Shown here: in pieces, positions 13,992 through 36,465 of the stretch | How positions within the stretch are numbered: position 1 is the stretch's first letter | Layout of the letters: each line of letters begins with the position of its first letter | NCBI GenBank assembly: GCA_019322475.1 | Contig: JAHWIN010000011.1 | Location: 495 to 64,494, forward strand | Direction of reading: 5' to 3' | Length of the DNA: 64,000 nucleotides | From: Candidatus Woesearchaeota archaeon | GTDB taxonomy: Archaea; Nanobdellota; Nanobdellia; Woesearchaeales; JACPBV01 | Position numbers and translations under genes: made by a program | Notes under the pieces: model-generated | Databases searched by the model: none | Told to the model about the DNA's origin: nothing | What the model saw: the letters and a program-made list of their open reading frames with translations, nothing else

Positions 13992-14061
13992 ATAAACGAA
14001 AAGAGATAACATCTGGGCTATACCAGAACTATAAGATTAGAGGATCAGGCACACGATCAAA

Positions 14062-16893: not shown

Positions 16894-16894
16894 G

Positions 16895-17527: not shown

Positions 17528-17528
17528 G

Positions 17529-21707: not shown

Positions 21708-21708
21708 C

Positions 21709-22029
21709 TCACATAACTATCTCTTCATCCATCATGCTGCCATTATCTCCTTTTTCTTTATCAGAAGATGAGCCTTGCCCTTTTAGGACAAGGTACTCAT
21801 ACGCCTTCTGCAGGACTAGGCTGGCTTTTGGCAGGTCATTAAGCCTTAAAGAATTAGATGTCTGCCATTTCCCTTCTTTATCTGTATATCTTCTCTGTAG
21901 GGTTATAGTCCTGTATTCTACAGGCCCCCCATCCTTCTTGTTTGTGCCGTTATTTTTCCATATCGTAGCACTTATGGCACCAGTGCTGAACTTCTTCTCT
22001 GGCAGATTGCCAGCTTTTTCTCCATTCAT
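21709..22029 (-). CDS. hypothetical small protein (possible PC4/YdbC-like ssDNA-binding fold)
   Basis: Weak resemblance to PC4/YdbC-like ssDNA-binding proteins, by eye only. Adjacent to radA. Confidence 0.3.
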   Translation of the reverse strand: MNGEKAGNLPEKKFSTGAISATIWKNNGTNKKDGGPVEYRTITLQRRYTDKEGKWQTSNSLRLNDLPKASLVLQKAYEYLVLKGQGSSSDKEKGDNGSMMDEEIVM

Positions 22030-22300
22030 TTAAAACACCTCTTTCCTTTCGGTTTTTGTTTCAAACCCACCTTATTTAGGAAGAGCAAGCTTCCGGCGGG
22101 CGAGGTATTGCTTTATGAGCAACCTATTAAGTTAAGCCATAGTCCTTTATATACCTTGCGCGCACTTGGCAAGTGGCAAGTGGACCATGGATTTTAGCCC
22201 TACAAAGCCTGAAAAGCCAAAATTTAAAGGAATCAGGGTTGGCAAGTGGAAACCCCCCAAACACCTAATTTCTAACTAAACCTGCAGAATACTAAGCTGT

Positions 22301-22924
22301 TCACTTCTGTTTCCGTTTTATCGGAAAAAGCCTCATTATTGCCAATAAGGCGATGATTGCACTTAAGATAATTGCTATAGGGATAATGTTTGATTTTTTC
22401 TGTTTATCTTCAATTACATAATCCTGATCAGTTATCATATCAGGTTCATCCATTTTTTCTTCACAATCCAGAGTTTCTTCCAGCCATCCATAGTCCAAGG
22501 AAGGGCACACTCTTCCCAAGAATTCAATCTCTTCAGCCCGTTTCCAGCCTGCAGGCAATTTTCCGCACCTGTCGATGTCTTCGACAAAGGCGCATATCTG
22601 TTCCACATCATTTACTACAGCATCCTCACAGTCTCCATTAGCCCCCGAATGCTGGACAGTGCAGCAGAAATCGCTTTTTATTGGGGCGCAGTCTGAACTT
22701 CTCTGCACCTCATCATAACCCTGAGGGCATTGGAACCCTTCGATGGTCTTCCACCCACCCGGAACAGTGCAGGTCATGCATTCATCTCCCATGAAAAATT
22801 CAGAGCACTCTTTTGTTTGCTCGTTTATCCCATATCGGGGTAAGGCCTGCGCAGCAAAGACAGCCAAAGGGATAGATAAGGCAAAGAATGCTGTAAATAG
22901 GATTGATATTGGTTTTTTTCTCAT
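22301..22924 (-). CDS. secreted cysteine-rich protein with a C-terminal TM anchor and basic tail
   Basis: N-terminal signal peptide, 16 Cys in the ectodomain, and a C-terminal 'PIAIILSAIIALLAIMRLFPIKRKQK' anchor reminiscent of sorting signals. Confidence 0.45.
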   Translation of the reverse strand: MRKKPISILFTAFFALSIPLAVFAAQALPRYGINEQTKECSEFFMGDECMTCTVPGGWKTIEGFQCPQGYDEVQRSSDCAPIKSDFCCTVQHSGANGDCEDAVVNDVEQICAFVEDIDRCGKLPAGWKRAEEIEFLGRVCPSLDYGWLEETLDCEEKMDEPDMITDQDYVIEDKQKKSNIIPIAIILSAIIALLAIMRLFPIKRKQK

Positions 22925-23057
22925 TATTCATATCTTAATCTTTGATCATTATAAATATTTCTAAAATAAAGGATATGATAATCTATTCCTCTTGGCTTTG
23001 CACTTTTATTAACCTTATTTATGTGCACTTTGTAATTAATGTGCAAGCCGTTCTTCT

Positions 23058-23516
23058 TCATATCCCTATTAGCTTGCATACTATCAAAACGCCCAGAATA
23101 AAAAAGATAATCTTCTCAGCTAAGGACCCGACCTTGATGATCCCTCTGGCCTTCATCCTGCTTAGAGGATAAAAAAGCCGCACTCCTTTTTTTGTAGCCA
23201 TATCAAGAAGAAGATGCCCTAGATACCCAAAAATAACCGCCATCCCGGCAAATTTCAGTCCAAAAACAAAAAAAACAGCAGATATCACCAATGGAAAATA
23301 AACAGTATGGAACACACCTCTATGGCTGAATAAGCTGCTCAGGTATGAAAACGGCCTAAGCCCCTTGGATATCTTTGATGAGCTGTTGTCGATGTCAGGA
23401 AATACCGAAAAAAACAGCAAGACTGCAATAAACAATATCTGTTTTTCTACCTTAAAATAATCAACCAGATAAAGCCCTATAAGAAACCCAAAAGCCAGAT
23501 GTGTCCTGAAAAGCAT
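23058..23516 (-). CDS. membrane-bound metal-dependent hydrolase, DUF457/YdjM family
   Basis: Four TM helices with conserved His/Asp positions ('HRGVFHT', 'GHLLLD'). Confidence 0.5.
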   Translation of the reverse strand: MLFRTHLAFGFLIGLYLVDYFKVEKQILFIAVLLFFSVFPDIDNSSSKISKGLRPFSYLSSLFSHRGVFHTVYFPLVISAVFFVFGLKFAGMAVIFGYLGHLLLDMATKKGVRLFYPLSRMKARGIIKVGSLAEKIIFFILGVLIVCKLIGI

Positions 23517-23518
23517 CT

Positions 23519-24694
23519 TTATATATCTTCAAACCCAGGAAGTTTATCGCCAGATCCATCGCTCTTATTTGTCTCTCCTGAGATCTCCTCTGCGCTTGAG
23601 CTGTCGACAACTACACTTTCCTCACCGCTATCAGGCTTGGCCACATCCTCTTTTTTCTCTGGCTCTTCTTCAATACCCTCTTCTTTCTTGTTCTCAGCCT
23701 CTTTCTTGAGCCTCTCTATCTCTTCCTTAGGGTCAGGCTTCGGAAAGACCCTGTTTGCTACAAACTCCAGCCTGTCAAAAAGCTCGTTCTTGCTTGTTCT
23801 CCCTATGACCTTTATTATGTTGCCAAGAAGGCTTGTTTTTACCTCTTCAAACCTCTCCGGATTATCCTTATACTCCAGTATCTTCTGCTGGTCCATCTCA
23901 AGGAGGTTTTCAGCCTGTCTCCTGAAAAATACAGCCCTTATGGATTCTGAGCCGTCATCTATTATAGCGTTCAATACATATGAATAAGCAGGCTCTACAG
24001 TCTGATGGCTCTCGCAGAAAAATCCTCCTTCCCTTTGCCTTACCCTTTTGTTGCACTCAGGGCAGACCTCAAAGAACCTTGGCTCAAATACCTGCAATAC
24101 TGTCCCGAGAAGCTCAACATCATTATCCTCTTCTTTAAGCTCGCTGATCTTCTTCCTTGTAGATGAATATGCCTTTACCTCCCCTAATGTCTCACCTTCA
24201 GGGTTTATCTCTATCTTGCTTCTGTCACCAAGATGGATCTCAGTCCTGTTGTTGTTCTCTCTCGTATATCCTGAGATTATCTTTACAACATCCCCTTCTT
24301 TTATGTCCTTTAAGGAATCTGTCTGTGATCCCCACATGACAACCCTTATAGAGCCCGTCTCATCTGCTATTACTATATTAGCGACCTTTCCCGGGCTTCC
24401 GTCCTTCCTTTGGAACTCAGTTATAGGATATGTCTGCTGGACCTTCCCTACAGTCTCAACATCCCTCATCCCCGCAAGTATGTTCTTTATCTGCAGCCTT
24501 GTGGCAGCAGCAGCCTCTTCTATAAGCTTTATCCCAAGGTCATTTGCAATTATATGCGCCGCTCCTTCTTCAGAGACAAGTCCTGAAAGCTGCTCCATCT
24601 TCTGCTTTATCTTAGAATTGATCTCATCTTCGCTCATCCCTGATTTCTCTTTTATCTTTTCAACGATCTGAGACAGAGGTATTTTTATCATCAT
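23519..24694 (-). CDS. replication protein A-like ssDNA-binding protein (OB folds plus Zn ribbon)
   Basis: 'ANIVIADETGSIRVVMW' is a typical RPA OB-fold segment and 'CPECNKRVRQREGGFFCESH' is a zinc ribbon. The C-terminal tail is acidic. Confidence 0.65.
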   Translation of the reverse strand: MMIKIPLSQIVEKIKEKSGMSEDEINSKIKQKMEQLSGLVSEEGAAHIIANDLGIKLIEEAAAATRLQIKNILAGMRDVETVGKVQQTYPITEFQRKDGSPGKVANIVIADETGSIRVVMWGSQTDSLKDIKEGDVVKIISGYTRENNNRTEIHLGDRSKIEINPEGETLGEVKAYSSTRKKISELKEEDNDVELLGTVLQVFEPRFFEVCPECNKRVRQREGGFFCESHQTVEPAYSYVLNAIIDDGSESIRAVFFRRQAENLLEMDQQKILEYKDNPERFEEVKTSLLGNIIKVIGRTSKNELFDRLEFVANRVFPKPDPKEEIERLKKEAENKKEEGIEEEPEKKEDVAKPDSGEESVVVDSSSAEEISGETNKSDGSGDKLPGFEDI

Positions 24695-24836: not shown

Positions 24837-26168
24837 TCAGGGCTCTATGGCTATCTGGGAGGAGCCCCTCTCACTCGGGGGTATATTCACCCTTTTGGCT
24901 ATTATCTCCTTCATCTCATTGCCTGCATCATCCTCTGCAGTAACTGCAAAATAATACCTGCCTTCAAACCCGTCTAGGAGTATATTATTCTCCCCCTTAG
25001 TAATCGGAATTTCCAGCTTATTCATCTGGCCTGTGCTGATAGGTGGTTTTGAAGGGCTGTCTTTACCCCCTATATTGATTATCTTCTTATAATAGACCTT
25101 ATAGCTTGAAGCATCAGAGGCATTGTTCCTCCATGTAAGATACCACCCATCCTCTCCTTTTTCCAAAAGATTCCCTTCTTCATCTGTTATTATCTCTGTG
25201 GCAGGAGGCTCAAAATCATCCTTGAACCTTAGCCCGTATTTGGCTATCATCTCCTTTTCATAATAAGGGTTTTCAAAGGAACCATCCTTTATTTTGACAA
25301 GTAATGTATAAGTCTTCTCAGGATAAAGCTTAGATTCTTCACCTGAAATAGCAGGGGCATCAGCTATAGGCACTATCGGGATTATCTCATAATCCTCGAT
25401 CCCCTCTACTCCATCTTCACCCTTGACCCCTTTTATTATCCTGTCCTTGTCAGAGCACACTATAAAATCATCGCCGTCATCAGCCTCATAGCTCCCTTTC
25501 TTAAGGCACTCGACAACACTTTCCTTTATCTCCTTAGCTTTTTCACCATACTCTTCAAATTTATCTATAAAATTATACCCTCCTTCATAGCTGAAAGAAG
25601 GCTTTAGCGAATAATCAGAATGCCCTTCCTCAGAACTCACTATCAGGTCCTGGGCTGCAATCCCGTTGACCATGATTGTATCTCCCTTATTCTCAAAGGT
25701 AAAGTCATAATTATCCAAAGGTATGGGAACAGCAGGATACGCCTTAAGGTACACATCAAGCTTCCTGTTGAGGAAATAAGAAAAGCCCACAGCAAGGTCC
25801 CTCTCTTCAGGATAGCACTCTGTCGTAATAGTGATCCCGCCCTCTTCACTTTCAAAAGTCTCCCAAAGGGAATATCCATCATCACCATACACATATTTCC
25901 CGCACTCACTATTATGGAACCCCCCATTGCTTCCAAGATCATAAACTGCATCATAAAATGCGTATTCTGCTGATTGGTCTATGTATTTTTTTATCTTAAT
26001 GGCATCATACATCAGTTTATAAGAGTCTAAAAAAACCTCTCCTATGAATTCTGTTTCTTTTGGAAGGTTTCTGGAACAATTCAATCCATAGAATAGCAAC
26101 AAGGATATTGCAAGGAAAAAAATTACAGGATAATACAATATCATTGCTCTTTTATTCAATACCATCAT
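24837..26168 (-). CDS. large secreted/anchored surface protein at the downstream end of the pilin-like operon
   Basis: N-terminal 'NKRAMILYYPVIFFLAISLLLF' hydrophobic anchor followed by a ~400-aa acidic ectodomain. Start is coupled to the upstream gene by a 4-nt overlap. Confidence 0.4.
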   Translation of the reverse strand: MMVLNKRAMILYYPVIFFLAISLLLFYGLNCSRNLPKETEFIGEVFLDSYKLMYDAIKIKKYIDQSAEYAFYDAVYDLGSNGGFHNSECGKYVYGDDGYSLWETFESEEGGITITTECYPEERDLAVGFSYFLNRKLDVYLKAYPAVPIPLDNYDFTFENKGDTIMVNGIAAQDLIVSSEEGHSDYSLKPSFSYEGGYNFIDKFEEYGEKAKEIKESVVECLKKGSYEADDGDDFIVCSDKDRIIKGVKGEDGVEGIEDYEIIPIVPIADAPAISGEESKLYPEKTYTLLVKIKDGSFENPYYEKEMIAKYGLRFKDDFEPPATEIITDEEGNLLEKGEDGWYLTWRNNASDASSYKVYYKKIINIGGKDSPSKPPISTGQMNKLEIPITKGENNILLDGFEGRYYFAVTAEDDAGNEMKEIIAKRVNIPPSERGSSQIAIEP

Positions 26169-26761
26169 GGGCCACTTGATTCTCCTAGCTCCTTTAATGT
26201 CTTTTCATATTTTGTTAGATTTCTCCCTGTCCCATGAGTTAAGTCTACTCCTATTAAAGGAACGCCCCTATCTGGATTGGGGGTTATAGCTCTGGAATAT
26301 CCTGCATCGCTTGAGATTATGCCCTCAGTAGAGCTTATCTGCACCTTAAAGCCTATAGATTCTAAGGTTAGGTATGTTTTCTTCCCCTTTTCAACCTCCT
26401 GTCTTTTAGATTCATCATATATCTTAAGGTTATAGTAATCACTCTCAAATATCTCGGTGGCTTTCTTTTCAAGCTCATGATAATTATCTTTATTAAAAGA
26501 ATCAACTATCAACTCACTAAAACTTTTCATCTCTCCGCCAGACTCAACCCTCGTTTCCAAAATCTCTATCATTTTTTGTTCTGCCTTAAGGTTATTCAAT
26601 TTGCCCCTTATTAGGATATGATCAGCCTTGTCTTTTGTCCTGCTGCGGACCCCCAGAAAAAGGACAATAGCTACAATTCCACAGACTCCAAACAAAAAAG
26701 AAGCAAGGTCATCAACTGCAATCCCCTTTTTTGACTTGAGTAGCTTATGCATTTTGCTCAC
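26165..26761 (-). CDS. pilin-like protein (class III signal peptide-like N-terminus)
   Basis: 'KSKKGIAVDDLASFLFGVCGIVAIVLFLGV' is a basic residue, Gly, then a hydrophobic helix. Overlaps the flanking genes. Confidence 0.4.
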   Translation of the reverse strand: MSKMHKLLKSKKGIAVDDLASFLFGVCGIVAIVLFLGVRSRTKDKADHILIRGKLNNLKAEQKMIEILETRVESGGEMKSFSELIVDSFNKDNYHELEKKATEIFESDYYNLKIYDESKRQEVEKGKKTYLTLESIGFKVQISSTEGIISSDAGYSRAITPNPDRGVPLIGVDLTHGTGRNLTKYEKTLKELGESSGP

Positions 26762-27266
26762 TTATTATCAGTTCCCCCCCTATTATTTCATTATTATAAG
26801 ATATATCCATCTTCATAGTTTTTCTTTTTGTGCTGATCTTCTCATCCCAATTCCTGCTTCTTATCACCTTGGGACCTATCTTTTTCTCTTTAGGAAGCTT
26901 AAGTTCCAGCTTAAACGCTATTTTTTTGCTTTTATCTCCTACATCATAGCATGAATGCAGGTTCTCTTCTGTAAATCTGCTAAATTCTATGGTTTTGGGA
27001 TTATTTATCCTGTCTAGAGCAAAGCAGTCATCAGAAAAGAACCTTTCGATATATGAAAATTCCTCTATCCCTTCTGGAATACTTGCACTACTTTCAACCT
27101 GGTTGTATATAGCCAACATAAAAATTATTAGCATGATACTTAGGGCTATGCCAAAAATAATGTAAGGGATTAATGAACCTCCAGGATAAAATGATATCCC
27201 TTTTTTATGCAGCTTCTTCATTTTCTTAACGTATCCGCCATAGCTAAACTTATAGGATCTATCCAA
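26745..27266 (-). CDS. pilin-like protein (class III signal peptide)
   Basis: The 'HKKGI' / 'SFYPGGSLIPYIIFGIALSIMLIIF' N-terminus. Confidence 0.4.
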   Translation of the reverse strand: MDRSYKFSYGGYVKKMKKLHKKGISFYPGGSLIPYIIFGIALSIMLIIFMLAIYNQVESSASIPEGIEEFSYIERFFSDDCFALDRINNPKTIEFSRFTEENLHSCYDVGDKSKKIAFKLELKLPKEKKIGPKVIRSRNWDEKISTKRKTMKMDISYNNEIIGGELIISEQNA

Positions 27267-28246
27267 TCAGGCTTAATAGTCTCTCCTGCCTCTTGGCCAG
27301 CATAATTATCAATCTCGATTACCATGGCTATCTTATCATTATCCAGCATGGGTTCACCATCCTGGGGAACCAACGCTGCTCCAGTAATCTTGCCTGATTC
27401 ATCATTCTTCAGGATGTTATTGATCATCAAGCACCCCATCTTCTTTATCTCCTCTTTTCTTGGGGATTTAGGGGAGAAGTATATCCTGATATTATTGCCC
27501 TCACTCTCTCTTTCCCCTACCTGTATCCTTATGACAGCATCTACACCACCCACTTTATCTTCCATCCTGCTTTCAGCTAAGCTTAGTGGATTATTGCCTA
27601 TATCCTCTATATACTCATTTCTTGCGTGCTCTGCCTTAATATCATTTCCTAGTCTGATCATAAATGAGGCTGCTATAAGGTTAGCCGCTTTCCCTTTTTC
27701 AATATCCTGGTCTTTGCCGATTCCAGAATCTACAAGGATACTTTTTATCTTTGGCTTTTCTGCAATCTCTTCACATTTAAGCCTTCTCAGGTCAGGCTTT
27801 TTTTCGCTTACTATTATCTCCCCTGCTATCTTTCCAACATACAGTTCTTTAGGCTTATTTATAACTTCAGTTAAAGGAGCATAATTAGAGCTTCCTGCAA
27901 AGGCATATGTAGATTCTGTAACATCATCAGCTGTAGAAGAAACACTCACAGTATAGTCCCTTATGATTATATCCATATTAGAGACATCCTCAGGATATTT
28001 GGTTATAGTATTGACCCCGTTAGGGACAAGATACATCTGTTCTATCATAAGCCCTATATCCTTTGCAGCCCTTATTTTAGGTATAGCATCACCATACCCA
28101 TAGCTGTAGGCTAATCCCTGGAACGTCAAGATAACGATAGCAGTCACTATTATTTCTATGCCCACCTTATAAAGTAGCTGCCCTCTTTTTGAGTTTACCC
28201 TTATCCTATCAAACCCAAAAAACCTCTTTTTTTCTTTGGTTCCCAC
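27218..28246 (-). CDS. pilin-like protein with a large globular domain (class III signal peptide)
   Basis: 'SKRGQ' followed by 'LLYKVGIEIIVTAIVILTF' matches the archaeal prepilin pattern [KR]G[QA]-hydrophobic. Confidence 0.45.
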   Translation of the reverse strand: MGTKEKKRFFGFDRIRVNSKRGQLLYKVGIEIIVTAIVILTFQGLAYSYGYGDAIPKIRAAKDIGLMIEQMYLVPNGVNTITKYPEDVSNMDIIIRDYTVSVSSTADDVTESTYAFAGSSNYAPLTEVINKPKELYVGKIAGEIIVSEKKPDLRRLKCEEIAEKPKIKSILVDSGIGKDQDIEKGKAANLIAASFMIRLGNDIKAEHARNEYIEDIGNNPLSLAESRMEDKVGGVDAVIRIQVGERESEGNNIRIYFSPKSPRKEEIKKMGCLMINNILKNDESGKITGAALVPQDGEPMLDNDKIAMVIEIDNYAGQEAGETIKPDWIDPISLAMADTLRK

Positions 28247-28247
28247 A

Positions 28248-29045
28248 TTAACCTTCTTCTTCCCCCTTATCCTCTGGAATGCATGTCTCTTTATAGCATA
28301 TCCCTGTTACGCCCTTGTATTTTTGTATATAAACCGCCCTGTTTCTTTGGTCAAATACGAGGGGGGAACTGGTGCTATGGAAAGATCCCTCACTGTCTGC
28401 TACCAGGGTATATCCCCAAAGGGCTATGCTCATCAATGTATTTTCTGCACTCTCCTTATTATATCTCTCAAAAGTAAAACCTCCCTTTAGGAAAAAATTT
28501 TGGTAAAAAGGCTTTACATCCATCTCTATATCTTTTAATGGAACATCCGATAAAAAATCAACATAATCCATACTCATGCATTTGGCTTTATGGTTGCAGA
28601 AAACCTCTTCAACACCGCCTATCTCTTCACCTTGCCATCCTTCCTGGCATAGGCAAACACATGCTTTCCTGTCTTCACAATTATCCGGCCGTTTAATTAC
28701 TATTGCTTTTTTATATCTGCCTGTAACACGCTCATAAGCCCCGATGCTTATCTCCTCAGAATACTTAGAAAATCCGTATATTGCAGTTCCTTTGTCCATT
28801 ATTAGGTTCATGCTTCTTGTACCGCCCTCTTCAGTCTCTTTTATCACTTCTATAAACCTGTTAAAAGACTGCTCTCCTCCGCTCGTCACCCTAAATAGTG
28901 ACTTTGCCAGGAATATTGCTGATAAGAAGAACAAGAGGGCTATGATTAGCCTTAGCAGGAACTCAGTCATAAGCCCTCTTCTTTTTTTTGCTATAGAAAA
29001 ATCTAAGATGCCTCTGCATTTTCTTGATTTTTTAGATGAACTCAT
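28248..29045 (-). CDS. cysteine-rich pilin-like protein (class III signal peptide)
   Basis: 'KKRRGL' followed by 'MTEFLLRLIIALLFFLSAIF'. The ectodomain contains the Cys cluster 'CEDRKACVCLCQEGW...CNHKAKC'. Confidence 0.45.
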   Translation of the reverse strand: MSSSKKSRKCRGILDFSIAKKRRGLMTEFLLRLIIALLFFLSAIFLAKSLFRVTSGGEQSFNRFIEVIKETEEGGTRSMNLIMDKGTAIYGFSKYSEEISIGAYERVTGRYKKAIVIKRPDNCEDRKACVCLCQEGWQGEEIGGVEEVFCNHKAKCMSMDYVDFLSDVPLKDIEMDVKPFYQNFFLKGGFTFERYNKESAENTLMSIALWGYTLVADSEGSFHSTSSPLVFDQRNRAVYIQKYKGVTGICYKETCIPEDKGEEEG

Positions 29046-29073
29046 TGTTTTTTAACACCAATCCATGTTTCTA

Positions 29074-29418
29074 TTAAGTTTTTTCTACTTCCTTTTTCTG
29101 AGGAGTTATACATTTTCTGTCTATGCTGGTAGGGTCTTTCTCATAATCTTCTAAATCCTTTTTACTGACACATCCCCCAAACTCGCTTACCCCTGGATCA
29201 CATGGGCATTTATCCACCATGTCAAGGATATTGTCTCCATCCCAATCCCCTATCAGGCTGTGCGCCTGTCTGGACTCTTTTCCTATAAGGCTGTTGAATA
29301 TCAGCAATAAGACAGTAGCAGTTACTAAAAGGATTGCTGCAACTATGACAACTGTCAATGACATCTCTATAGCTTTTTTATTCTTTCTCATTTTTACACC
29401 TCTCCTATATTCTCCCAA
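29074..29418 (-). CDS. small pilin-like protein (class III signal peptide)
   Basis: 'NKKAI' followed by 'EMSLTVVIVAAILLVTATVLLLIF', then a CxC-containing C-terminal domain. Confidence 0.45.
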   Translation of the reverse strand: MGEYRRGVKMRKNKKAIEMSLTVVIVAAILLVTATVLLLIFNSLIGKESRQAHSLIGDWDGDNILDMVDKCPCDPGVSEFGGCVSKKDLEDYEKDPTSIDRKCITPQKKEVEKT

Positions 29419-29440
29419 GTTCTATCTTTAATCTTGAACT

Positions 29441-30928
29441 CTAAGCCAATATCAGTTTACACTCCTTTGAGCCTTTCTCAGCGACAAAAAAGCTGTGTTT
29501 ATATTGTTTGTCTATGTTTACACATTCCTCCCTTGTAACGCTTGGAGTGATTCCAACAAACATATCCTTTGCCTCATCAAAAGAAGCGCAGTACCCCATA
29601 TCATCGATGCACCCTTCATCTATATTATCCACTAATTTATCATAAAATATAGCATAATGCGGCCTAAATGCCTCTATCAGGGTCAGAGAGCATTGCTTTC
29701 TTGTGACTATCCAGTTTCCATAAGCAGACGTTTTTTCTATAGTTTCCATAACATTTTCCTCAACCTTATCTATGTAACCTTCTTTTTTCCCATATCTGGC
29801 TAATTCTCTAAGTATCTTATCAGAGGGATTTAGCTTGCCGATCATAAAATAATTCCATAAGGCATGATAAGCTATACATATGCCTTCATCACTATCTTTT
29901 TTATCTTTTTCTTCTTTTAAGCTTTCATCTACTGCAAACTCAGTAAGCATAAGATTAAACTGGGTACACGGAGGCTCAAAGCTGAACCAGGGATTGTCTT
30001 TGTTTGTCCAGCCCTCCGAAGAGTCGCAGATGCAATTAGCCCCTTTAGAGGATTCACCTTCACAGAATAAGCTTTCTGCTTTGACGCATGGAGGATCAAA
30101 GCTTGCCCATGGCTCTTTCTCATTCACGCACCCTTCTTCTATGTTGCAGATTTGTTTTCCATCCTTCATTACCTGGCAGTATTTTTTAGTGCATTCCCTC
30201 CCATTCTCAGTTCTTGTTTTCATATCATTGTTATCAAAACCATGCAGGCCTGGGATATAACCAACACCATAGGTCTTTCCAGTTTCAGGATCGATCACCC
30301 GGTCATCAGTAAAGAAACAGGCAAGATTTTCCCCTTCAGGCTTGTACAATGCAGGATACTTTGGAAAAAGATAATAAGGATTTGTATTTCCAAAATATAT
30401 TGCATTTCTTTTTTTGATTTCTGCCCTTTCCAACTTAGCATATTTAGCGACTATATCATCATCTTTATCAGGGATGGCTATGCAGGGCATTATCCCCTCA
30501 ACAAAATGATCAGCGACACGCTGTTTTTTAACATTAAGCAGCCTCATGTTCGTCCCTTTTTTTTCCTCAACATACTCAAGTTCTATTGTATACTCCTTCA
30601 TTTCTAAAGTGCCATAGCCGGAAAAGCAGTCATTATCCTCTTTGCATAAGGCAAACGCTTCATATAAGCTGTCAAATATGTTTTTAATCTCCTCTGGAAC
30701 AGCCTCTTCCGGAGAAATCTCCTTTTCATATCTCCCGGGCAAAAATCTTTCAAAGCCCTTAGCTGCTTCCGCCGCCCTGGGTATAAGCCCTCCAGAAGAA
30801 AAAAATATGCCTCCTATGATAATAAAGACTATTAGTAAGATGGAGATTGTCATAACAGTCCCTGAAATGGCTTTTTTATTCATTAAACTTAACCCCTCTA
30901 CACCACTTGCTTCTCCAATAAATAACAA
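29441..30928 (-). CDS. large cysteine-rich pilin-like/adhesin protein with internal W-x-SF-[DE]-PPC repeats
   Basis: N-terminal 'NKKAI' followed by 'SGTVMTISILLIVFIIIGGIFF'. The ectodomain repeats 'KEPWASFDPPC' and 'DNPWFSFEPPC' between Cys-rich segments. Confidence 0.45.
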   Translation of the reverse strand: MLFIGEASGVEGLSLMNKKAISGTVMTISILLIVFIIIGGIFFSSGGLIPRAAEAAKGFERFLPGRYEKEISPEEAVPEEIKNIFDSLYEAFALCKEDNDCFSGYGTLEMKEYTIELEYVEEKKGTNMRLLNVKKQRVADHFVEGIMPCIAIPDKDDDIVAKYAKLERAEIKKRNAIYFGNTNPYYLFPKYPALYKPEGENLACFFTDDRVIDPETGKTYGVGYIPGLHGFDNNDMKTRTENGRECTKKYCQVMKDGKQICNIEEGCVNEKEPWASFDPPCVKAESLFCEGESSKGANCICDSSEGWTNKDNPWFSFEPPCTQFNLMLTEFAVDESLKEEKDKKDSDEGICIAYHALWNYFMIGKLNPSDKILRELARYGKKEGYIDKVEENVMETIEKTSAYGNWIVTRKQCSLTLIEAFRPHYAIFYDKLVDNIDEGCIDDMGYCASFDEAKDMFVGITPSVTREECVNIDKQYKHSFFVAEKGSKECKLILA

Positions 30929-31105
30929 GTCTTGTTTCTATCTCAATCTTAATCTATTTCCACCCAAAAAACCGGTTTACTATGCCTATTATCTGCTCCC
31001 TCAATCCTCCATAAAAAAATAGTATAAAGATGGCAAATAAAAATAATAGCGCCCACCATATCACTTTTTCCCATGGAAGCGCCAAAGCGCCTTTTTTATC
31101 TTTCA

Positions 31106-32125
31106 TTATTCACCACTAATATCTGATTGTATATCACAAAGGCCTTCAACATCATTCAGCCGTGAGATAAGTATAGCGTTTGTTACTTCTTCCGGATAAG
31201 GGTCACTCTTCCACAAAAATCTTCTTAGATCCCCAAATAGGGCAGTCTTTGATACATATGTTATTGCATACGTCTCTTCCAATGGCCTAAAATCTTCGAT
31301 GCCTTCAACATCAATGATTGCCTTGCCTTCCCCTTCATACTCTTGGATATACCTTTCATAACTTAAAAAATTATTTTCCTCTATGCAGCATTTCTCTCCC
31401 TCGCTTCCCTTGCATGACCATCCTTTATATTCTTCCAGCCCCTCGCCACATTCATCACTGCATACCCCCCCTTTATTTAAGCACTCTACTTTTTTATTGC
31501 AGCATACCTCTTTTTTTATCTCTCCATCCACCTTTTTGCTCGGGCATCTGCTGGATGGTGTTTCTTTTTCATCGCTTTCACACACCTCTCTGCACCAGCC
31601 CCCTCCTTGTATATTGCATTTGTTGCTCTTATCTATCACGATATGCTGGGTATCCTGAAGAAACTGCTTTAATCCTGTAGCAGAAAAAGATCCTACATCC
31701 TTGTTTATGTTGAAATCATAGCATATAAAGCATTTCTTTTCTCCTGTCCATGTAGTCCCGAACATATCATCTTTTGTCCCTTCCAGCCACATCCACCAGC
31801 ATCTGGCTGCCAGATCCCCTATCTCCATCATGGCCCCCTCAGTCTCATCCCCTGTATACTTTACATAACCTGGATCAGGTACATCTTTATGGATAATTTT
31901 GCATGTCCTTGGAGCCAGGTTAAAAAGGGTAAATCCGAACTTCTCAACCTCTGTTTTTGTCCTAAGTGCGTTAAAGCCCCTGCATAGCTGTTCAGATGTT
32001 GCTGCTTCTGCCTTGGAAAAAAACATCCCATGTAGGTTTACGATCATAAGCGCAGAAAAAAGCAGGATGGTAGTGGATACAATAAACTTCATCCCCAGGG
32101 CTTTCTTATTTCGACCTGATAACAT
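31106..32125 (-). CDS. secreted cysteine-rich protein (possible pilin/adhesin)
   Basis: N-terminal 'NKKAL' followed by 'GMKFIVSTTILLFSALMIV'. A dense Cys block 'CREVCESDE...CCNKKVECLNKGGVCSDECGEG...CKGSEGEKCC'. Confidence 0.4.
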   Translation of the reverse strand: MLSGRNKKALGMKFIVSTTILLFSALMIVNLHGMFFSKAEAATSEQLCRGFNALRTKTEVEKFGFTLFNLAPRTCKIIHKDVPDPGYVKYTGDETEGAMMEIGDLAARCWWMWLEGTKDDMFGTTWTGEKKCFICYDFNINKDVGSFSATGLKQFLQDTQHIVIDKSNKCNIQGGGWCREVCESDEKETPSSRCPSKKVDGEIKKEVCCNKKVECLNKGGVCSDECGEGLEEYKGWSCKGSEGEKCCIEENNFLSYERYIQEYEGEGKAIIDVEGIEDFRPLEETYAITYVSKTALFGDLRRFLWKSDPYPEEVTNAILISRLNDVEGLCDIQSDISGE

Positions 32126-32434
32126 TAATTATCCCCCTTAACATTAAGAAGAAAACTACTGTAAGGAATAATGCCACTATAATCTTAAATAAGTCCGCTG
32201 ACAGACCCTTCTTCCACCTCATCATCCTACTCTCGAAAACCATAGTCATCTACAGGCGTAATTTCTATTTAAATCTTTTGAATCCTCCCGAAGAAAACAG
32301 TCCATTCTTTAAAAAAAAGCTCTGCATATAATCCATCCTCTGGCAGGCATGATGCTCAAAACACCATATAATCAAGCTAAGATCCTTCATAAAAACAGTT
32401 AACCTTAAATAAAAGTACATACTTAGTACGTATT

Positions 32435-33214
32435 ATGCAGAAACTGGTATTCAGGAAAAAAGTATCTAAAGGAAGCAGGTTTAATCAGATATATATCCCC
32501 AAATGCCTTGAAAACAGGATATCAGTGGGGGATGAGGTAGAGGTAAGGCTGGTAAAAAAGCATATAGGCCTTTACTATTCCAGGGGATTAGGAAAATTGT
32601 CCGCTTTCAAGGAGAACCTGATAAGGGACATCTTCTCTTTCCTGGAAAGTTTCGATAAGATCCTGAACATATTTGTAGTAGGCTCATTTTTATCCATGAA
32701 GATAGATTACAATGACATAGACATAGTTATAATAACTGAAGAGAGGGAAGATGGCATCGAAGAGCAGGTTTATGGCAAGCTTATAGATAAGTTCAACCTA
32801 AAGTTCCATATCCTCAATATAGGGAGGAAAAAGCTGGAATACCTGCTTAAGGCCTGCCCCCTGACCAGGGCCATGTTCAGCCTTTATGTCAGCAATAAAG
32901 ACGTCAATTTAGAAAAAAAGAAAATAATCGATAAAAATCATCTAAGCTTTTTGCTTATGATGCCCGAAGACCTGCTTGAGATAAGGCTAAGCAGCAGGGT
33001 CTTTTTCGATAACCTAAGGAGGTTGATAGTTATTGAAATGTTTTTAGATGATAAAAGTTTAGAGCTAGAGGATGTAAGCTCGGAATTAAGCGATTTGATA
33101 GGTAAAAGGCTATACCAAAGGATGAAAGATAACCTGGAGGTAGAAGAGAGGGTTGTTGGAGATATGAGGGCTGTCATAAAGGCAAAGCTGATAAGGATAA
33201 GAAAGATGATCTAG
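32435..33214 (+). CDS. nucleotidyltransferase-domain protein with an N-terminal AbrB/SpoVT-like domain
   Basis: 'QIYIPKCLENRISVGDEVEVRLV' resembles a swapped-hairpin AbrB-like barrel. 'VVGSFLSMKIDYNDIDIVII' is the minimal-NTase GS...D.D motif. Confidence 0.5.
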   Translation: MQKLVFRKKVSKGSRFNQIYIPKCLENRISVGDEVEVRLVKKHIGLYYSRGLGKLSAFKENLIRDIFSFLESFDKILNIFVVGSFLSMKIDYNDIDIVIITEEREDGIEEQVYGKLIDKFNLKFHILNIGRKKLEYLLKACPLTRAMFSLYVSNKDVNLEKKKIIDKNHLSFLLMMPEDLLEIRLSSRVFFDNLRRLIVIEMFLDDKSLELEDVSSELSDLIGKRLYQRMKDNLEVEERVVGDMRAVIKAKLIRIRKMI

Positions 33215-33220
33215 ATTAAG

Positions 33221-33538
33221 ATGGGGAAAAAAGGCGATATAGACCAATTGGCCAATATAATGTCAAGGGCATTAAGGCATAAGATAGGCTCGATAGTCAA
33301 CAAGGACGAGTTCTACGCTGAAAGATACTCAAGAGATTCTGAAAACCTTATGAAAGAGGCTGAAAAGGTCCTGGACAGAAGAAAATGGAACAAGGAGGAT
33401 AAGGCAGATATCAGGGAAAGATTGAAGGAGAAGCTGCTTAAAGAGCTGAAAGAAAAGGATTTTCTTGACCAAAAGAAATTTGATATCATGGATGAAGAGG
33501 CGGATAAGGCTTTAGAAAGGTTCGGGTTGATGCCTTGA
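33221..33538 (+). CDS. hypothetical charged helical protein (possible partner of the upstream NTase)
   Basis: 105-aa Lys/Glu-rich protein, 7 nt downstream of the NTase gene. Confidence 0.3.
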   Translation: MGKKGDIDQLANIMSRALRHKIGSIVNKDEFYAERYSRDSENLMKEAEKVLDRRKWNKEDKADIRERLKEKLLKELKEKDFLDQKKFDIMDEEADKALERFGLMP

Positions 33539-33540
33539 TA

Positions 33541-33798
33541 TCATCCAACACAACACGCGCTCTCAGGCTCATCGCAGTCAGACCAGCCCCCTTCCTTGGG
33601 AGTAATCTCATTGCCCGAATAAGGCTTGCAGCAGTAGTTCGTAGTCCCTGAAATCCTGCATACGTTTACAGAAGAGCTTTGCTCTGTCTTTTTAACATTC
33701 TCTTCAAAATTAGCCATCCAGGAAAAGATAAGCACAGCGACAATGACAAGGACTACTATAGAAAAGATAGTTGTCTTAGAAACACCTCTATTGTCCAT
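33541..33798 (-). CDS. small cysteine-containing pilin (class III signal peptide, 'CCKP' motif)
   Basis: 'NRGVSKTTIFSIVVLVIVAVLIF' prepilin-like N-terminus. The C-terminal domain has 'YCCKPYSG' and a terminal 'ACC'. Confidence 0.5.
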   Translation of the reverse strand: MDNRGVSKTTIFSIVVLVIVAVLIFSWMANFEENVKKTEQSSSVNVCRISGTTNYCCKPYSGNEITPKEGGWSDCDEPESACCVG

Positions 33799-33827
33799 TT
33801 TAAATAAAAAAAGAAAAAATAAAAAGA

Positions 33828-34223
33828 TTAGCAGTCGTTTTTATCTATGGTTGTCCATATGCATCCTGCATGTTCTGGAGATTCGCATGCTGTCCTATCA
33901 TTGCTGAAAACACCGCAGTCCTTTCCATCATCTCCATAAGTTTCAGTGCATGCCTCTGCTTTTGTAGGCTTGCAGCAGATCTCTCCTGCAGTGACGTCTG
34001 AGAATTGCCCGTATACCCTTAGGCATATAGAGCTGCACCCTTCAATCTCGCTCTTTACCAGACCGTTAGCCTCAGCGCATGTCCCTCCTTTCGTGACATC
34101 AGAGACGCCCTTGCTGAAGACCCCCATCCTGCCTGTAAATACAGCCCATAGGACCACCAGCACGATAAGGACTATAGCTGCTATTATTATCGTGTTCAGG
34201 CTCAATCCTTGTCCCTTTTTCAT
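33828..34223 (-). CDS. small cysteine-rich pilin (class III signal peptide, 'CCKP' motif)
   Basis: 'MKKGQ' followed by 'GLSLNTIIIAAIVLIVLVVLW' is a textbook archaeal prepilin N-terminus. The ectodomain has ten Cys including 'EICCKPTKAE'. Confidence 0.55.
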   Translation of the reverse strand: MKKGQGLSLNTIIIAAIVLIVLVVLWAVFTGRMGVFSKGVSDVTKGGTCAEANGLVKSEIEGCSSICLRVYGQFSDVTAGEICCKPTKAEACTETYGDDGKDCGVFSNDRTACESPEHAGCIWTTIDKNDC

Positions 34224-34324
34224 AATTATGCACCTCTTTGTTTATTCTAAATGCTGATTATACCTTATAACTATTGTATGTTATATTTAAAACTTTCGGG
34301 TCGTGCTTAAAAAACAGCATTATT

Positions 34325-34819
34325 TTAGCATATGTCTATAGACAGATAAAGTATCTTTTCACCGGAAGCGTCTATAGGTATGGGGTCTGTCTTATGCTTC
34401 TTTTCCCCCGGGCATCCTCTTTCGCTTTTCACATCGACTATTGTCGCCTCCTCCGCCCTTGCCTCAAAATCATAATTTATGTGCCATTTTTCAAGCGTTT
34501 GGTTAAGTATATCCTTCGTCATCTCATTTATATACTGGCAGGAGCTTTTCCCGCCCCTGCACATAACCTGCGGATTCTCATGATCCCTCCCGCAGTCTTT
34601 ATAGAGCTCTTTTATGCTCATCCTGTGGGTGCTGCAGTTCTCTGTAGTTGTTCCCATAAGGGTGCTTAAGATGTTGGAGGCAATCTCAGTCTGCGTATAC
34701 CCTTTTTTGTACTCAAAAGGCTCTTTTAGCATTATGAACCTGATAGCAAAAAGCATGATTATTGATATCAGTATGACTATTATAGCGAGCCCCATTATCT
34801 CCATCTGTGCTTTTTTCAT
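34325..34819 (-). CDS. pilin-like protein (class III signal peptide)
   Basis: 'MKKAQ' followed by '[19 protein letters not shown]'. The globular domain carries eight Cys. Confidence 0.5.
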
Positions 34820-34918
34820 ATTATAGCAAGCGACACAAATTTTTATACAATATACAGGTCACTTGCTTATTACTAAAAGACAAGATTTGTTCAAAAACTT
34901 TTCTTTTAGTATAATCGT

Positions 34919-35422
34919 TCACTTTTTATAAAATTCTATGGCCAGGATCCCAAAGCCGATATCCTCTGAAGTTCCGTTGAATAAGGAGACAGGTATGAAT
35001 GTTGAAAGCCTGTTCGAATAGTTTGCCATGGTGCCGTTATATAATATCCACATTTTTTTTTCTGGAAATATCTCTTCAACCCATATCCTGCTGGACTCAA
35101 AAACATCGTAATAATATATGTTGTTTTCCCTTACAGTCCCGGAAGCGGCCTCCAGCTTCATGATGTCTATGCACCCCTCTGTTATTATGTTCTCTCTGGA
35201 GCATTGAAGCTCAGGAAGGAATGAAGCCTTCTGCGCTGCCTGTATGGCCTCCAGCTGGATGTTCTCCTCCATCTCCGTCTTTGAAGACCCGCTTATGACA
35301 TTCATGTAGAAGACAAAGCCGAACATTACAAATACTATGAAGATGAAGAGTATGGCCACGGATTCGCCCATCTGTATCTGTGCTTTTTCATCCTTCATTT
35401 TTTTCAGTAGATAAGTGTGCAT
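34919..35422 (-). CDS. pilin-like protein (class III signal peptide)
   Basis: 'DEKAQ' followed by 'IQMGESVAILFIFIVFVMF'. Confidence 0.45.
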   Translation of the reverse strand: MHTYLLKKMKDEKAQIQMGESVAILFIFIVFVMFGFVFYMNVISGSSKTEMEENIQLEAIQAAQKASFLPELQCSRENIITEGCIDIMKLEAASGTVRENNIYYYDVFESSRIWVEEIFPEKKMWILYNGTMANYSNRLSTFIPVSLFNGTSEDIGFGILAIEFYKK

Positions 35423-36465
35423 GAGTGCAGCTTTGCCAGGTTGTTTGCGCTTCCCTCTTCCCCGCTTATGTCCTTTGCAGCATCCTTTATGTCATCCATA
35501 TCCTCCTGACTAGTGCCTGGAAAATCAGAAGCCATCTTTTCTGATCCTTCCTTTATGGTTTCTATGCCTGTTATTGCATGGTCATATGCAGTTGAGCAAT
35601 GGCTATTTCCTGCATATACCACTTTCATCCTGGACGACCTGTTAAGGTAAACCCTGCTTACCAGGCTTAGTTTTCTGAAAGCCTTCCTCATCACACAGTC
35701 ATACATCTCCTTGTCTTCTGCAAATATCGCCCCAAATAAGCTTTCTTCCTTTAGGTAATGGCTTTTTCCCTCTGATCTCCACTCTGCCCCGTTCTTTTCC
35801 AGAAACTCTATCGTTCCTGTAGGCTCTATAAGGCTTGAATCCTTCAATGTAGTAAGATTGGCTGCTGTTAAGCTTTCATCATCCATCCCGCTAAGCTTTT
35901 GCAGTATGGCATCAGCATTGGAATTGCCCAGCAGTATTACCTTGACCTTATAGTTGTTCTTGTCTATCAGGCTGCCAAGCTCTGCTTCTGTAGTTAATTC
36001 CTTGTTCATCTCCTTTGGCAGCTTATCATAGATCCTCTGCCCCAGCCCCTCATTGTTGTCGACTATTATATACCTTAGCTGAGGATCTGTAAGATAAAGG
36101 AAGTTGGTTGCCCTGTAAGGCACGTTCCAGTCCAGTGCCCAGGTTATCATCTCTTTGCCCTTCAATACCCCTGGAGAGAATATAACATTGCCCCTTGTCG
36201 ATTTTGGGCTCACCCCTATAAAGTACCTGTTGCACTCAAATCCTATGTCAATGTTAGGCAGGTCTATGATATTGACGGTATTCATGGAAGCCTGGGCCCC
36301 CGTAAGCAGGGACTCAAGCTTTGTGACTATGCTTCCTTCAGTCCTTACTTCAGAGAATTCCCTCTGTTTATTGACAACATTTATGAAGAATATGAATATG
36401 ACAGCCCCCGCTATAAGTATGAATATCCAGTTGAAATGTACCTCTATCATGCCTCTTTTTTCCAT
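35404..36465 (-). CDS. large pilin-like protein (class III signal peptide) at the head of the five-gene pilin sub-cluster
   Basis: 'MEKRG' followed by 'MIEVHFNWIFILIAGAVIFIFF', then a 320-aa globular domain with no nucleotide-binding motif. Confidence 0.45.
   Translation of the reverse strand: MEKRGMIEVHFNWIFILIAGAVIFIFFINVVNKQREFSEVRTEGSIVTKLESLLTGAQASMNTVNIIDLPNIDIGFECNRYFIGVSPKSTRGNVIFSPGVLKGKEMITWALDWNVPYRATNFLYLTDPQLRYIIVDNNEGLGQRIYDKLPKEMNKELTTEAELGSLIDKNNYKVKVILLGNSNADAILQKLSGMDDESLTAANLTTLKDSSLIEPTGTIEFLEKNGAEWRSEGKSHYLKEESLFGAIFAEDKEMYDCVMRKAFRKLSLVSRVYLNRSSRMKVVYAGNSHCSTAYDHAITGIETIKEGSEKMASDFPGTSQEDMDDIKDAAKDISGEEGSANNLAKLHSCTLIY

What the first reader, a model, noticed from the sequence alone, without database searches (positions are those of the whole stretch)
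29441..30928. 495-aa pilin-like protein with internally repeated W-x-SF-[DE]-PPC cysteine modules
After the prepilin-like N-terminus, the ectodomain contains two near-identical modules, 'CVNEKEPWASFDPPCVKAESLFCEGESSKGANCIC' and 'DSSEGWTNKDNPWFSFEPPCTQ'. Further Cys pairs are spread along the protein. The repeat is conserved and disulfide-rich, and I do not recognise it from any described domain. It could be a binding module displayed at a pilus tip.
Basis: seen in the sequence. Interest (0 to 1): 0.55.

Follow-up and report, generated by a model that had tools for sequence, protein, structure and literature searches.

The report
Repeated cysteine module in archaeal pilin-like protein
A surface protein of a tiny DPANN archaeon carries two tandem copies of a previously undescribed 40-residue, four-cysteine mini-domain and sits in a cluster of pilus-subunit-like genes, so it is probably a pilus subunit with extra domains attached, though what those domains do is untested.

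Summary
The repeat is real. W-x-S-F-[DE]-P-P-C occurs twice, 40 residues apart, inside two tandem ~40-aa four-Cys modules (self-alignment score 89 vs 37±5 in shuffles). The likely start is Met16 (480 aa, not 495). The two quoted strings are out of register. The modules are 37% identical, not near-identical.

An exhaustive HMMER search of 1.84 billion representatives found only 31 relatives. The named ones are all DPANN (Woesearchaeota, Pacearchaeota, Nanoarchaeia). No part matches Pfam, NCBIfam, PDB sequences or EGF.

In most relatives the module is single-copy and precedes a conserved ~170-aa domain. The N-terminal ~200-aa domain also exists as stand-alone proteins.

The gene lies among about 14 consecutive ORFs with class III (prepilin-type) signal-like N-termini. 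In relatives the same gene string includes a T2SSE ATPase and a Peptidase_A24 prepilin peptidase. None of that machinery is in this window.

Best reading: a modular minor pilin of a DPANN type IV filament, with disulfide-stapled mini-domains connecting or presenting a C-terminal domain. A binding role and tip location are plausible but untested. Fold-level support for a pilin domain differs between the two models. I rate it a new variant of a known kind, of moderate interest.

The parts
29441..30883 (-). Probable CDS (480 aa from Met16, stop included).
   Evidence: Homologues start MNKKA/MDKKA. 100% match to NCBI hypothetical protein KY358_01410, Ca. Woesearchaeota archaeon.
30794..30883 (-). 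Class III (prepilin-type) signal-like N-terminus, MNKKA|ISGTVMTISILLIVFIIIGGIFF: a basic leader ending in Ala, then a hydrophobic helix. The cleavage site is inferred.
   Evidence: Sequence. Motif test. Same motif in 27/36 family proteins, the others being mostly truncated calls. Model helix 6-28, pLDDT 86-92.
30191..30793 (-). N-terminal ectodomain ('handle', residues 31-231) with conserved Cys86, Cys134, Cys189 and Cys231. It also occurs as stand-alone proteins of about 220-290 aa.
30065..30178 (-). Cys module copy 1 (residues 236-273; Cys236, 246, 252, 266). It is a degenerate copy: the first Cys of the CxC pair is lost (Gln) and a Cys replaces the conserved Trp of GW.
   Evidence: HMM i-E 1.4e-13. 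Model pLDDT 86-90, but only 2 sequences cover it in the alignment.
29945..30064 (-). Cys module copy 2 (residues 274-313; Cys274, 284, 286, 306). It has the canonical form C-x9-C-I-C-D-S-x2-G-W-T-N-x3-P-W-F-S-F-E-P-P-C.
   Evidence: HMM i-E 5.8e-17. Relatives align to the query from this copy onward.
29444..29944 (-). Linker plus conserved C-terminal alpha/beta domain (residues 314-480). Family-conserved Cys336, 398, 432 and 454; Cys425 and Cys475 occur only in this protein and P0002.
30954..31106 (-). 50-aa mini pilin-like ORF directly upstream (MKDKKG|ALALPWEKVIWW...). It is below the default ORF length cut-off.
   Evidence: It has a homologue in L001 (2e-20). A 50-aa ORF occupies the equivalent position immediately upstream of the family gene in L003 and L004, and two genes upstream in L005 and L006.
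24837..36465 (-). Surrounding cluster of about 14 consecutive minus-strand ORFs with class III signal-like N-termini, several of them Cys-rich. A two-gene plus-strand insert at 32435-33538 interrupts it.
   Evidence: Gene order is shared with L001 and partly with L005.

Best explanation
The gene encodes a modular minor-pilin-like subunit of a DPANN-archaeal type IV filament system.

Shown. The N-terminus is prepilin-like: a KKA leader followed by a hydrophobic helix. After it comes a ~200-aa domain that also exists as stand-alone proteins. Next are two tandem copies of a ~40-aa four-Cys mini-domain, and then a conserved ~170-aa alpha/beta domain. Each unit holds an even number of conserved Cys. 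The module plus C-domain cassette is attached to different N-terminal handles in different lineages. Relatives are encoded in gene strings with a T2SSE secretion ATPase, a 9-TM protein and an A24 prepilin peptidase.

Inferred. An A24 peptidase removes the leader after KKA. The hydrophobic helix then anchors the protein in the filament. Because the ectodomain is about 50 kDa, the likely position is the tip, possibly in a complex with the neighbouring minor pilins. The four Cys of each module would form two intramodule disulfides, making a rigid mini-domain. The tandem modules would act as a stapled stalk or connector that presents the C-terminal domain, or they may themselves contribute a conserved aromatic surface (W, W, F, F). 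The likely purpose is contact with a surface or host cell.
For: The repeat is significant. A two-copy architecture is conserved in P0002.

The family splits into separable N-domain hits and module-plus-C-domain hits. P0024 has a four-Cys module joined directly to a different C-terminal domain, without the C-domain, so the module behaves as an autonomous unit. The N-domain of P0005 is homologous to the gene lying downstream of the family member in L002 and L003 (1.6e-21 and 3.6e-19), which shows cassette shuffling between handles.

Class III-like N-termini occur in 14/16 cluster ORFs against 3/72 elsewhere (p≈1e-11) and in 27/36 family proteins.

Machinery is linked to relatives. L003 has T2SSE (46 bits, cut-off 24.9), a 9-TM 739-aa protein, the family gene, nine more small ORFs and then Peptidase_A24 (33.6 bits, cut-off 26.5). 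L007 has T2SSE upstream. L002 and L008 have Peptidase_A24 downstream.

Modular pilins with a grafted module, probably at the filament tip, are an established concept (PMC8179133). Large class III signal proteins and Cys-rich components are known in archaeal T4P loci (PMC4858521).
Against: No ATPase, platform protein or A24 peptidase is encoded in the 64-kb window (Pfam; tblastn E>=0.17). No pilin Pfam or NCBIfam signature hits this or any neighbouring protein.

The alignment behind the model is shallow: 29 rows, and only 2 over module 1. Signal cleavage, disulfides, filament incorporation, tip location and any binding activity are all untested.
Confidence: 0.6

Rival explanations
1. It is a membrane-anchored cell-surface protein. 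The N-terminal hydrophobic segment acts as an uncleaved signal anchor. The protein is an accessory or assembly factor, or an envelope component, encoded next to pilin genes and is never polymerised into a filament.
For: No pilin family signature hits. Pilin-fold evidence is inconsistent. There is a flexible break after the first helix. The window has no machinery. At about 50 kDa the ectodomain is large for a filament subunit.
Against: The [KR][KR][GA]-plus-hydrophobic N-terminus is shared by 14/16 cluster ORFs and by the family across lineages. A dedicated A24 peptidase lies in the same gene string in four relatives' loci. Modular pilins of this size are documented (PMC8179133).
Confidence: 0.2
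2. The repeated module is itself the ligand-binding unit. In this view it is a small aromatic-rich disulfide knot binding a glycan or host surface molecule, and duplication raises avidity.
For: The module is the most strongly conserved short motif in the family, with invariant or near-invariant W, W, F and PPC. It is an autonomous unit (P0024). Duplication is retained in two diverged orthologues.
Against: It is single-copy in 11 of 13 family members, and in all but one of them (P0024) it directly precedes the larger conserved C-domain, which suits a connector. Conserved aromatics in a 40-residue domain may simply form its core. No similarity to any known carbohydrate-binding module was found.
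Confidence: 0.12
3. The four Cys of each module coordinate a metal (for example Zn) rather than forming disulfides, as might be expected in an anoxic habitat.
For: There are four Cys per module, including a CxC pair. The organism probably lives in anoxic settings (general knowledge of Woesearchaeota, not tested here).
Against: The spacing C-x9-C-x-C-x19-C lacks the paired CxxC knuckles typical of zinc ribbons (from my own knowledge). Every extracellular unit has an even Cys count. Module 1 relocates one Cys to a different position, which a rewired disulfide tolerates more easily than a tetrahedral metal site.
Confidence: 0.05
4. The repeat is a chance or low-complexity match, or a copy of a common known domain such as EGF.
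For: The CxC...G-aromatic stretch superficially recalls the C-terminal half of EGF.
Against: The self-alignment lies about 10 SD above shuffles. No EGF-type or other Pfam hit appears even at E<=10. hhalign against an EGF profile gives 1.15% probability. The module has four Cys, not six.
Confidence: 0.03

Closest known systems
Modular type IV pilins (e.g. Streptococcus sanguinis PilB and PilC; ETEC CofB; T2SS GspK), as defined in PMC8179133
   Same: An N-terminal class III signal plus hydrophobic helix, followed by a small N-terminal domain and then extra modules grafted C-terminally. The gene lies among minor-pilin genes. A tip location is expected because of bulk.
   Different: This protein is archaeal (DPANN). 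The grafted parts (the four-Cys module ×2 and the ~170-aa C-domain) match no described domain, whereas PilB and PilC carry vWA and lectin domains. A pilin fold for the N-domain is not securely established. No function has been tested.
Archaeal type IV filament loci with many minor pilins and large class III signal 'adhesin or minor pilin' proteins (Makarova et al. 2016, PMC4858521; TFF system 1 / 4A in bioRxiv 10.64898/2026.04.22.720090)
   Same: A long string of class III signal ORFs. In relatives the string contains a secretion ATPase, a multi-TM platform-like protein and an A24 peptidase. Cys-rich components presumed to be disulfide-stabilised are also noted there, for Thermoproteales loci.
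   Different: None of the pilin or adhesin families in Pfam or NCBIfam detect these proteins. [quoted passage not shown] The window's copy of the locus lacks the machinery genes.
T2SS minor pseudopilins GspI/EpsI/XcpV (PDB 2ret_A, 3ci0_I, 5bw0_B)
EGF-like and other small disulfide-rich extracellular repeats
   Same: A tandem unit of about 40 residues, rich in Cys and short beta hairpins, containing a CxC...G-aromatic stretch, located between larger domains like a stalk.
   Different: It has four Cys, not six. There is no HMM or profile match and no fold match was found.

Membership tests
Type IV pilin / class III signal peptide protein (type IV filament subunit) | Short basic leader ending in G/A, followed directly by a hydrophobic stretch of about 20 residues | tested here: met
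   MNKKA|ISGTVMTISILLIVFIIIGGIFF. The motif test is positive. The motif is conserved in family members.
Type IV pilin / class III signal peptide protein (type IV filament subunit) | N-terminal hydrophobic alpha-helix | tested here: met
   Model helix 6-28 with pLDDT 86-92. It is not continuous with the helix that packs on the sheet: residues 48-63 are low-confidence.
Type IV pilin / class III signal peptide protein (type IV filament subunit) | Leader cleaved by an A24 prepilin peptidase | not testable with these tools
   Needs N-terminal proteomics or an in vitro cleavage assay.
Type IV pilin / class III signal peptide protein (type IV filament subunit) | Globular pilin fold (helix packed on an antiparallel beta-sheet) | tested here: inconclusive
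Type IV pilin / class III signal peptide protein (type IV filament subunit) | Match to a curated pilin family model | tested here: not met
   No Pfam hit at E<=1 and no NCBIfam hit at E<=0.1 for this protein. No pilin model reached its cut-off for the neighbours; the only pilin-named hit was sub-threshold (13.4 bits, cut-off 40). No Pfam hit for the ten relatives scanned.
Type IV pilin / class III signal peptide protein (type IV filament subunit) | Encoded with TFF machinery (secretion ATPase, platform protein, A24 peptidase): in relatives | tested here: met
   L003 has T2SSE, a 9-TM protein and Peptidase_A24 in one string with P0012. L007 has T2SSE. L002 and L008 have Peptidase_A24.
Type IV pilin / class III signal peptide protein (type IV filament subunit) | Encoded with TFF machinery: in this window | tested here: not met
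   Nothing was found by Pfam on all large ORFs or by tblastn with the L003 ATPase, platform protein and peptidase (best E 0.17). The machinery may lie elsewhere in the genome.
Modular pilin (PMC8179133) | A pilin-type N-terminal module with one or more extra, separable modules grafted C-terminally | tested here: met
   The N-domain occurs alone (P0008/P0035, P0017, P0019-32). The module plus C-domain occurs on other handles (P0004-7, 10-12, 14, 16, 18), and one of those handles is homologous to a neighbouring pilin-like gene. This holds only if the N-domain really is a pilin module; see the fold row above.
Modular pilin (PMC8179133) | The grafted module performs a filament-mediated function such as adhesion | not testable with these tools
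   No known functional domain was detected. Binding assays are needed.
EGF-like domain | Six conserved Cys in the EGF spacing | tested here: not met
   There are four Cys per unit, spaced C-x(6-20)-C-x-C-x(19-27)-C.
EGF-like domain | Match to EGF-type HMMs or profiles | tested here: not met
   No Pfam hit at E<=10 on isolated modules other than a sub-threshold DUF5874 match.
EGF-like domain | EGF fold | tested here: inconclusive
   No EGF among the PDB hits. A whole-chain search is insensitive to a 40-residue sub-domain, and the module could not be searched alone.

The most novel reading that the evidence does not exclude
The four-Cys module plus C-domain cassette is a new fold family. It would be the host- or surface-recognition head of a DPANN-specific (Woesearchaeales/Pacearchaeales) type IV filament. 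Its pilins have so far escaped every family model. Shuffling of the cassette between pilin handles, and its duplication, would tune attachment in episymbiosis.
Probability: 0.25. Interest if true: 0.6.

Novelty: new variant of a known kind. Interest (0 to 1): 0.4.

Why it matters
How DPANN archaea attach to and recognise partner cells is largely unknown. The 2016 archaeal T4P census could not identify cognate pilins for nanoarchaeal ATPases (PMC4858521). This locus and its relatives define a concrete, conserved set of candidate filament subunits, including a modular one with undescribed domains. These could be expressed, localised and tested for binding. The module, the C-domain and the N-domain are also three unannotated domain families that could be added to the databases. 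The general principle, a pilin with grafted modules, is already known, so this extends an existing idea and does not overturn it.

Tried and rejected
- A word-indexed search of 5.8 billion proteins with the four-repeat profile found no candidates. With the family profile it found only 3 proteins.
- A scan of GTDB species genomes failed once because no stretch was conserved enough. The second attempt gave 44 pattern matches, none confirmed.
- The afdb50 fold library was unavailable, so there was no comparison with AlphaFold DB.
- A global MAFFT alignment of full-length family members misaligned the module onto the N-domain. I replaced it with HMMER-delimited fragments.
- Structure model 1 (13-row alignment) was poor outside the C-domain (pLDDT 61.8).
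- PDB sequence searches with the protein and with the family profile found nothing.
- Pfam scans of ten relatives found nothing.
- I considered and rejected three ideas: an EGF-like domain; a recent duplication (the repeats are only 52% identical at DNA level here and 67% in L001); and a lost C-terminal domain surviving as a pseudogene remnant (only 22 bp separate the stop from the next conserved gene).
- Model coordinates are not exposed to the sandbox, so Cys-Cys distances could not be measured.

Full report
THE OBSERVATION

The minus-strand ORF 29441-30928 exists. It contains WASFDPPC and WFSFEPPC exactly 40 residues apart, and 19 cysteines. The best off-diagonal Smith-Waterman self-alignment scores 89, against 37.1±5.0 (maximum 51) in 60 shuffles. 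The ungapped 31-residue alignment ICNIEEGCVNEKEPWASFDPPC... / ICDSSEGWTNKDNPWFSFEPPC... scores 81. So the repeat is not chance.

Three details in the finding need correcting. First, the likely start is Met16 (MNKKAISG..., 480 aa, 29441-30883). Homologues start MNKKA/MDKKA and a GAGGGG lies about 10 nt upstream. NCBI annotates Met26 (470 aa, hypothetical protein KY358_01410, Candidatus Woesearchaeota archaeon). In register the units are residues 236-273 (window 30065-30178) and 274-313 (29945-30064). Third, the units are 37% identical in protein and 52% in DNA, so this is an old duplication and the copies are not near-identical.

THE FAMILY

The word-indexed search found only the protein itself and one homologue, P0002 (600 aa, 49% identity). 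P0002 also has two module copies, 60% identical to each other. An exhaustive HMMER search of 1.84 billion cluster representatives found 31 proteins at E<=1e-3. They fall into two separable groups.

Group (a) matches only the N-terminal ~200 residues. It includes stand-alone proteins of about 220-290 aa, such as P0035 (224 aa) on a 24-kb contig.

Group (b) matches from module 2 onward: one module copy plus a conserved ~170-aa domain. In most of these proteins, and in P0002, there then follow one to three copies of a further C-terminal domain (KIS..YS...DLTFI.G...ICCYA) that the window protein lacks.

The module consensus is C-x(6-20)-C-x-C-[DN]-S-x2-G-W-T-[SN]-x3-P-W-x-S-F-[ED]-P-P-C. P0024 has a four-Cys module joined directly to the ICCYA-type domain without the C-domain, so the module behaves as an autonomous unit. 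A module HMM hits only the family gene in each locus examined: twice in the window and L001, once elsewhere.

Named members are Ca. Woesearchaeota, Ca. Pacearchaeota and Ca. Nanoarchaeia, all DPANN.

CYSTEINE BOOKKEEPING (from the sequence and alignments)

- The N-domain has four conserved Cys (86, 134, 189, 231).
- Module 1 has four (236, 246, 252, 266).
- Module 2 has four (274, 284, 286, 306).
- The C-domain has four family-conserved Cys (336, 398, 432, 454).
- Cys425 and Cys475 form an extra pair found only here and in P0002.
- Cys80 is unmatched.

Even counts per unit fit intradomain disulfides. In module 1 the first Cys of the CxC pair is lost and a Cys replaces the conserved Trp of GW, which suggests a rewired pair.

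KNOWN DOMAINS

Pfam returned nothing at E<=1 for the protein. At E<=10 on the isolated modules and C-domain there were only sub-threshold hits that I take to be noise. NCBIfam found nothing. PDB sequence searches with the protein or the family profile found nothing. Pfam found nothing on ten relatives.

hhalign of the 13-instance module alignment against an EGF alignment gave 1.15% probability, with only the CxC aligned. Neither is met.

STRUCTURE

Model 1 used a 13-row alignment and reached mean pLDDT 61.8. It was confident only for residues ~60-130 and the C-domain. Model 2 used a 29-row alignment of HMMER-delimited fragments. It reached mean pLDDT 84.7 and pTM 0.61, with the modules at 75-93 and the C-domain at 88-97. 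Only two rows of that alignment cover module 1, so confidence there should be read with caution.

CONTEXT

In the window, 14 of 16 minus-strand ORFs between 24837 and 36465 have a [KR][KR]?[GA] motif followed by a hydrophobic stretch, against 3 of 72 ORFs elsewhere (Fisher p≈1e-11). With its GTG start, 27218-28246 also fits the pattern. Several of the cluster proteins are Cys-rich.

Gene order around the target is conserved in L001, the contig carrying P0002. The order is: a KK[AG]QG|LSLNTIII pilin-like gene, a two-gene opposite-strand insert, a 339/328-aa gene, a 50-aa mini-pilin, the target, a 105/96-aa gene, a 265/248-aa gene and a 342-aa gene.

Relatives link the family to pilus machinery:
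- In L003 (P0012, Pacearchaeota) the string runs T2SSE ATPase (46 bits), a 739-aa protein with about 9 predicted TM segments, a 50-aa ORF, the family gene, nine more small ORFs and then Peptidase_A24 (33.6 bits).
- L007 (P0016) has a T2SSE ATPase upstream.
- L002 (P0011) and L008 (P0010) have Peptidase_A24 downstream.
- L005 (P0004) resembles the window: the pilin cluster is followed by RPA, YdjM and RadA.

The window itself encodes no ATPase, platform protein or A24 peptidase.

The N-domain of P0005 is homologous to the gene just downstream of the family member in L002 and L003. This shows that the module plus C-domain cassette has been moved between different pilin-like handles.

INTERPRETATION

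The best-supported reading, at about 0.6, is a modular minor-pilin-like subunit of a DPANN type IV filament. Its parts are a prepilin-type N-terminus, a handle domain, two stapled mini-domains and a C-terminal domain. This parallels bacterial modular pilins, which are thought to be tip-exposed (PMC8179133), and the large class III signal 'adhesin or minor pilin' proteins of archaeal T4P loci (PMC4858521; bioRxiv 10.64898/2026.04.22.720090).

Leader cleavage, disulfide formation, filament incorporation, tip position and binding are all inferences. Its constant position between handle and C-domain, and its single-copy state in most relatives, favour the connector role slightly.

The rivals are an unpolymerised signal-anchored surface protein (0.2), the module as the binding unit (0.12), metal-binding Cys (0.05), and chance or a known domain (0.03).

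NOVELTY AND SCORE

The principle is known. The domains and the DPANN locus type are not in any curated family library I could search. I rate it a new variant of a known kind, with interest 0.4.

Noticed in passing
window 30954-31106 (-): A 50-aa ORF (MKDKKG|ALALPWEKVIWWALLFLF...) lies directly upstream of the target and is too short for default ORF lists. It has a homologue in L001 (2e-20). A 50-aa ORF occupies the equivalent position directly upstream of the family gene in L003 and L004, and two genes upstream in L005 and L006. It would be a mini-pilin consisting of little more than the signal and the helix.
   Followed up: partly
window 32106-32249 (-): A 47-aa ORF (…RWKKG|LSADLFKIIVALFLTVVFFLML…) with a class III-like N-terminus lies just upstream of the 339-aa gene. 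L001 (1821-1964) and L005 (362-505) have small hydrophobic ORFs at the equivalent place.
   Followed up: no
window 32435-33538 (+): A two-gene insert on the opposite strand sits in the middle of the pilin-like cluster. It consists of a 259-aa protein with sub-threshold Polbeta / NTP_transf_2 nucleotidyltransferase hits and a 105-aa protein with no hit. Both are conserved at the same position in L001 (941-1720 and 619-939). A regulatory or toxin-antitoxin-like role is possible but untested.
   Followed up: partly
relatives P0002, P0004, P0007 (L001 3245-5047; L005 3191-5248); absent from the window protein: A further undescribed C-terminal domain of about 100 aa (KIS..YS.D..A...[ST]EEE[IV]K..C..W..YDLTFI.G...AC..E...ICCYA) is present in one copy in P0002, two in P0007 and three in P0004. 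It has no Pfam hit.
   Followed up: partly
window 31106-32125 (-) and 33828-34223 (-): Neighbouring pilin-like proteins are very Cys-rich: 18 Cys in 339 aa, with CC and C.C clusters, and 10 Cys in 131 aa. The 131-aa protein (MKKGQG|LSLNTIIIAAIV...) looks like the major-pilin candidate and has paralogues in L001 and L005.
   Followed up: partly
window 20643-24694 (-); L005 11647-14837; L008 13985-16936: The chromosomal neighbourhood downstream of the pilin cluster is conserved across these DPANN lineages: RPA (OB folds), then a YdjM-family membrane protein, then RadA. In L008, L003 and L002 an A24 peptidase, a HIT protein and EF-1-beta lie after the pilin genes (ahead of RPA in L008 and L003). 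These are missing in the window and in L005.
   Followed up: partly
window 16126-18503 (+), with 6752-8317, 10442-12325 and 12837-16028: Genes of the kind I associate (from my own knowledge) with bacterial lipid and fatty-acid metabolism occur in an archaeal contig. They are an NAD-dependent glycerol-3-phosphate dehydrogenase (GpsA-like), two PlsC-type acyltransferases, carboxyltransferase and biotin carboxylase, an acyl-CoA dehydrogenase and ETF alpha/beta. They may bear on ester-lipid synthesis or scavenging in DPANN.
   Followed up: no
window 55080-57323 (-): A 747-aa helicase combines a UvrD/REP core with RQC and HRDC domains. From my own knowledge those two domains are usually associated with RecQ, so the combination is unusual.
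   Followed up: no
window 2268-2984 (-): A 238-aa ORF has a weak hit to the HyaE family (23.9 bits, cut-off 22), which I recall as thioredoxin-like. I checked whether it might be a candidate extracytoplasmic thiol-disulfide oxidoreductase, given the many Cys-rich surface proteins, but did not pursue it.
   Followed up: no
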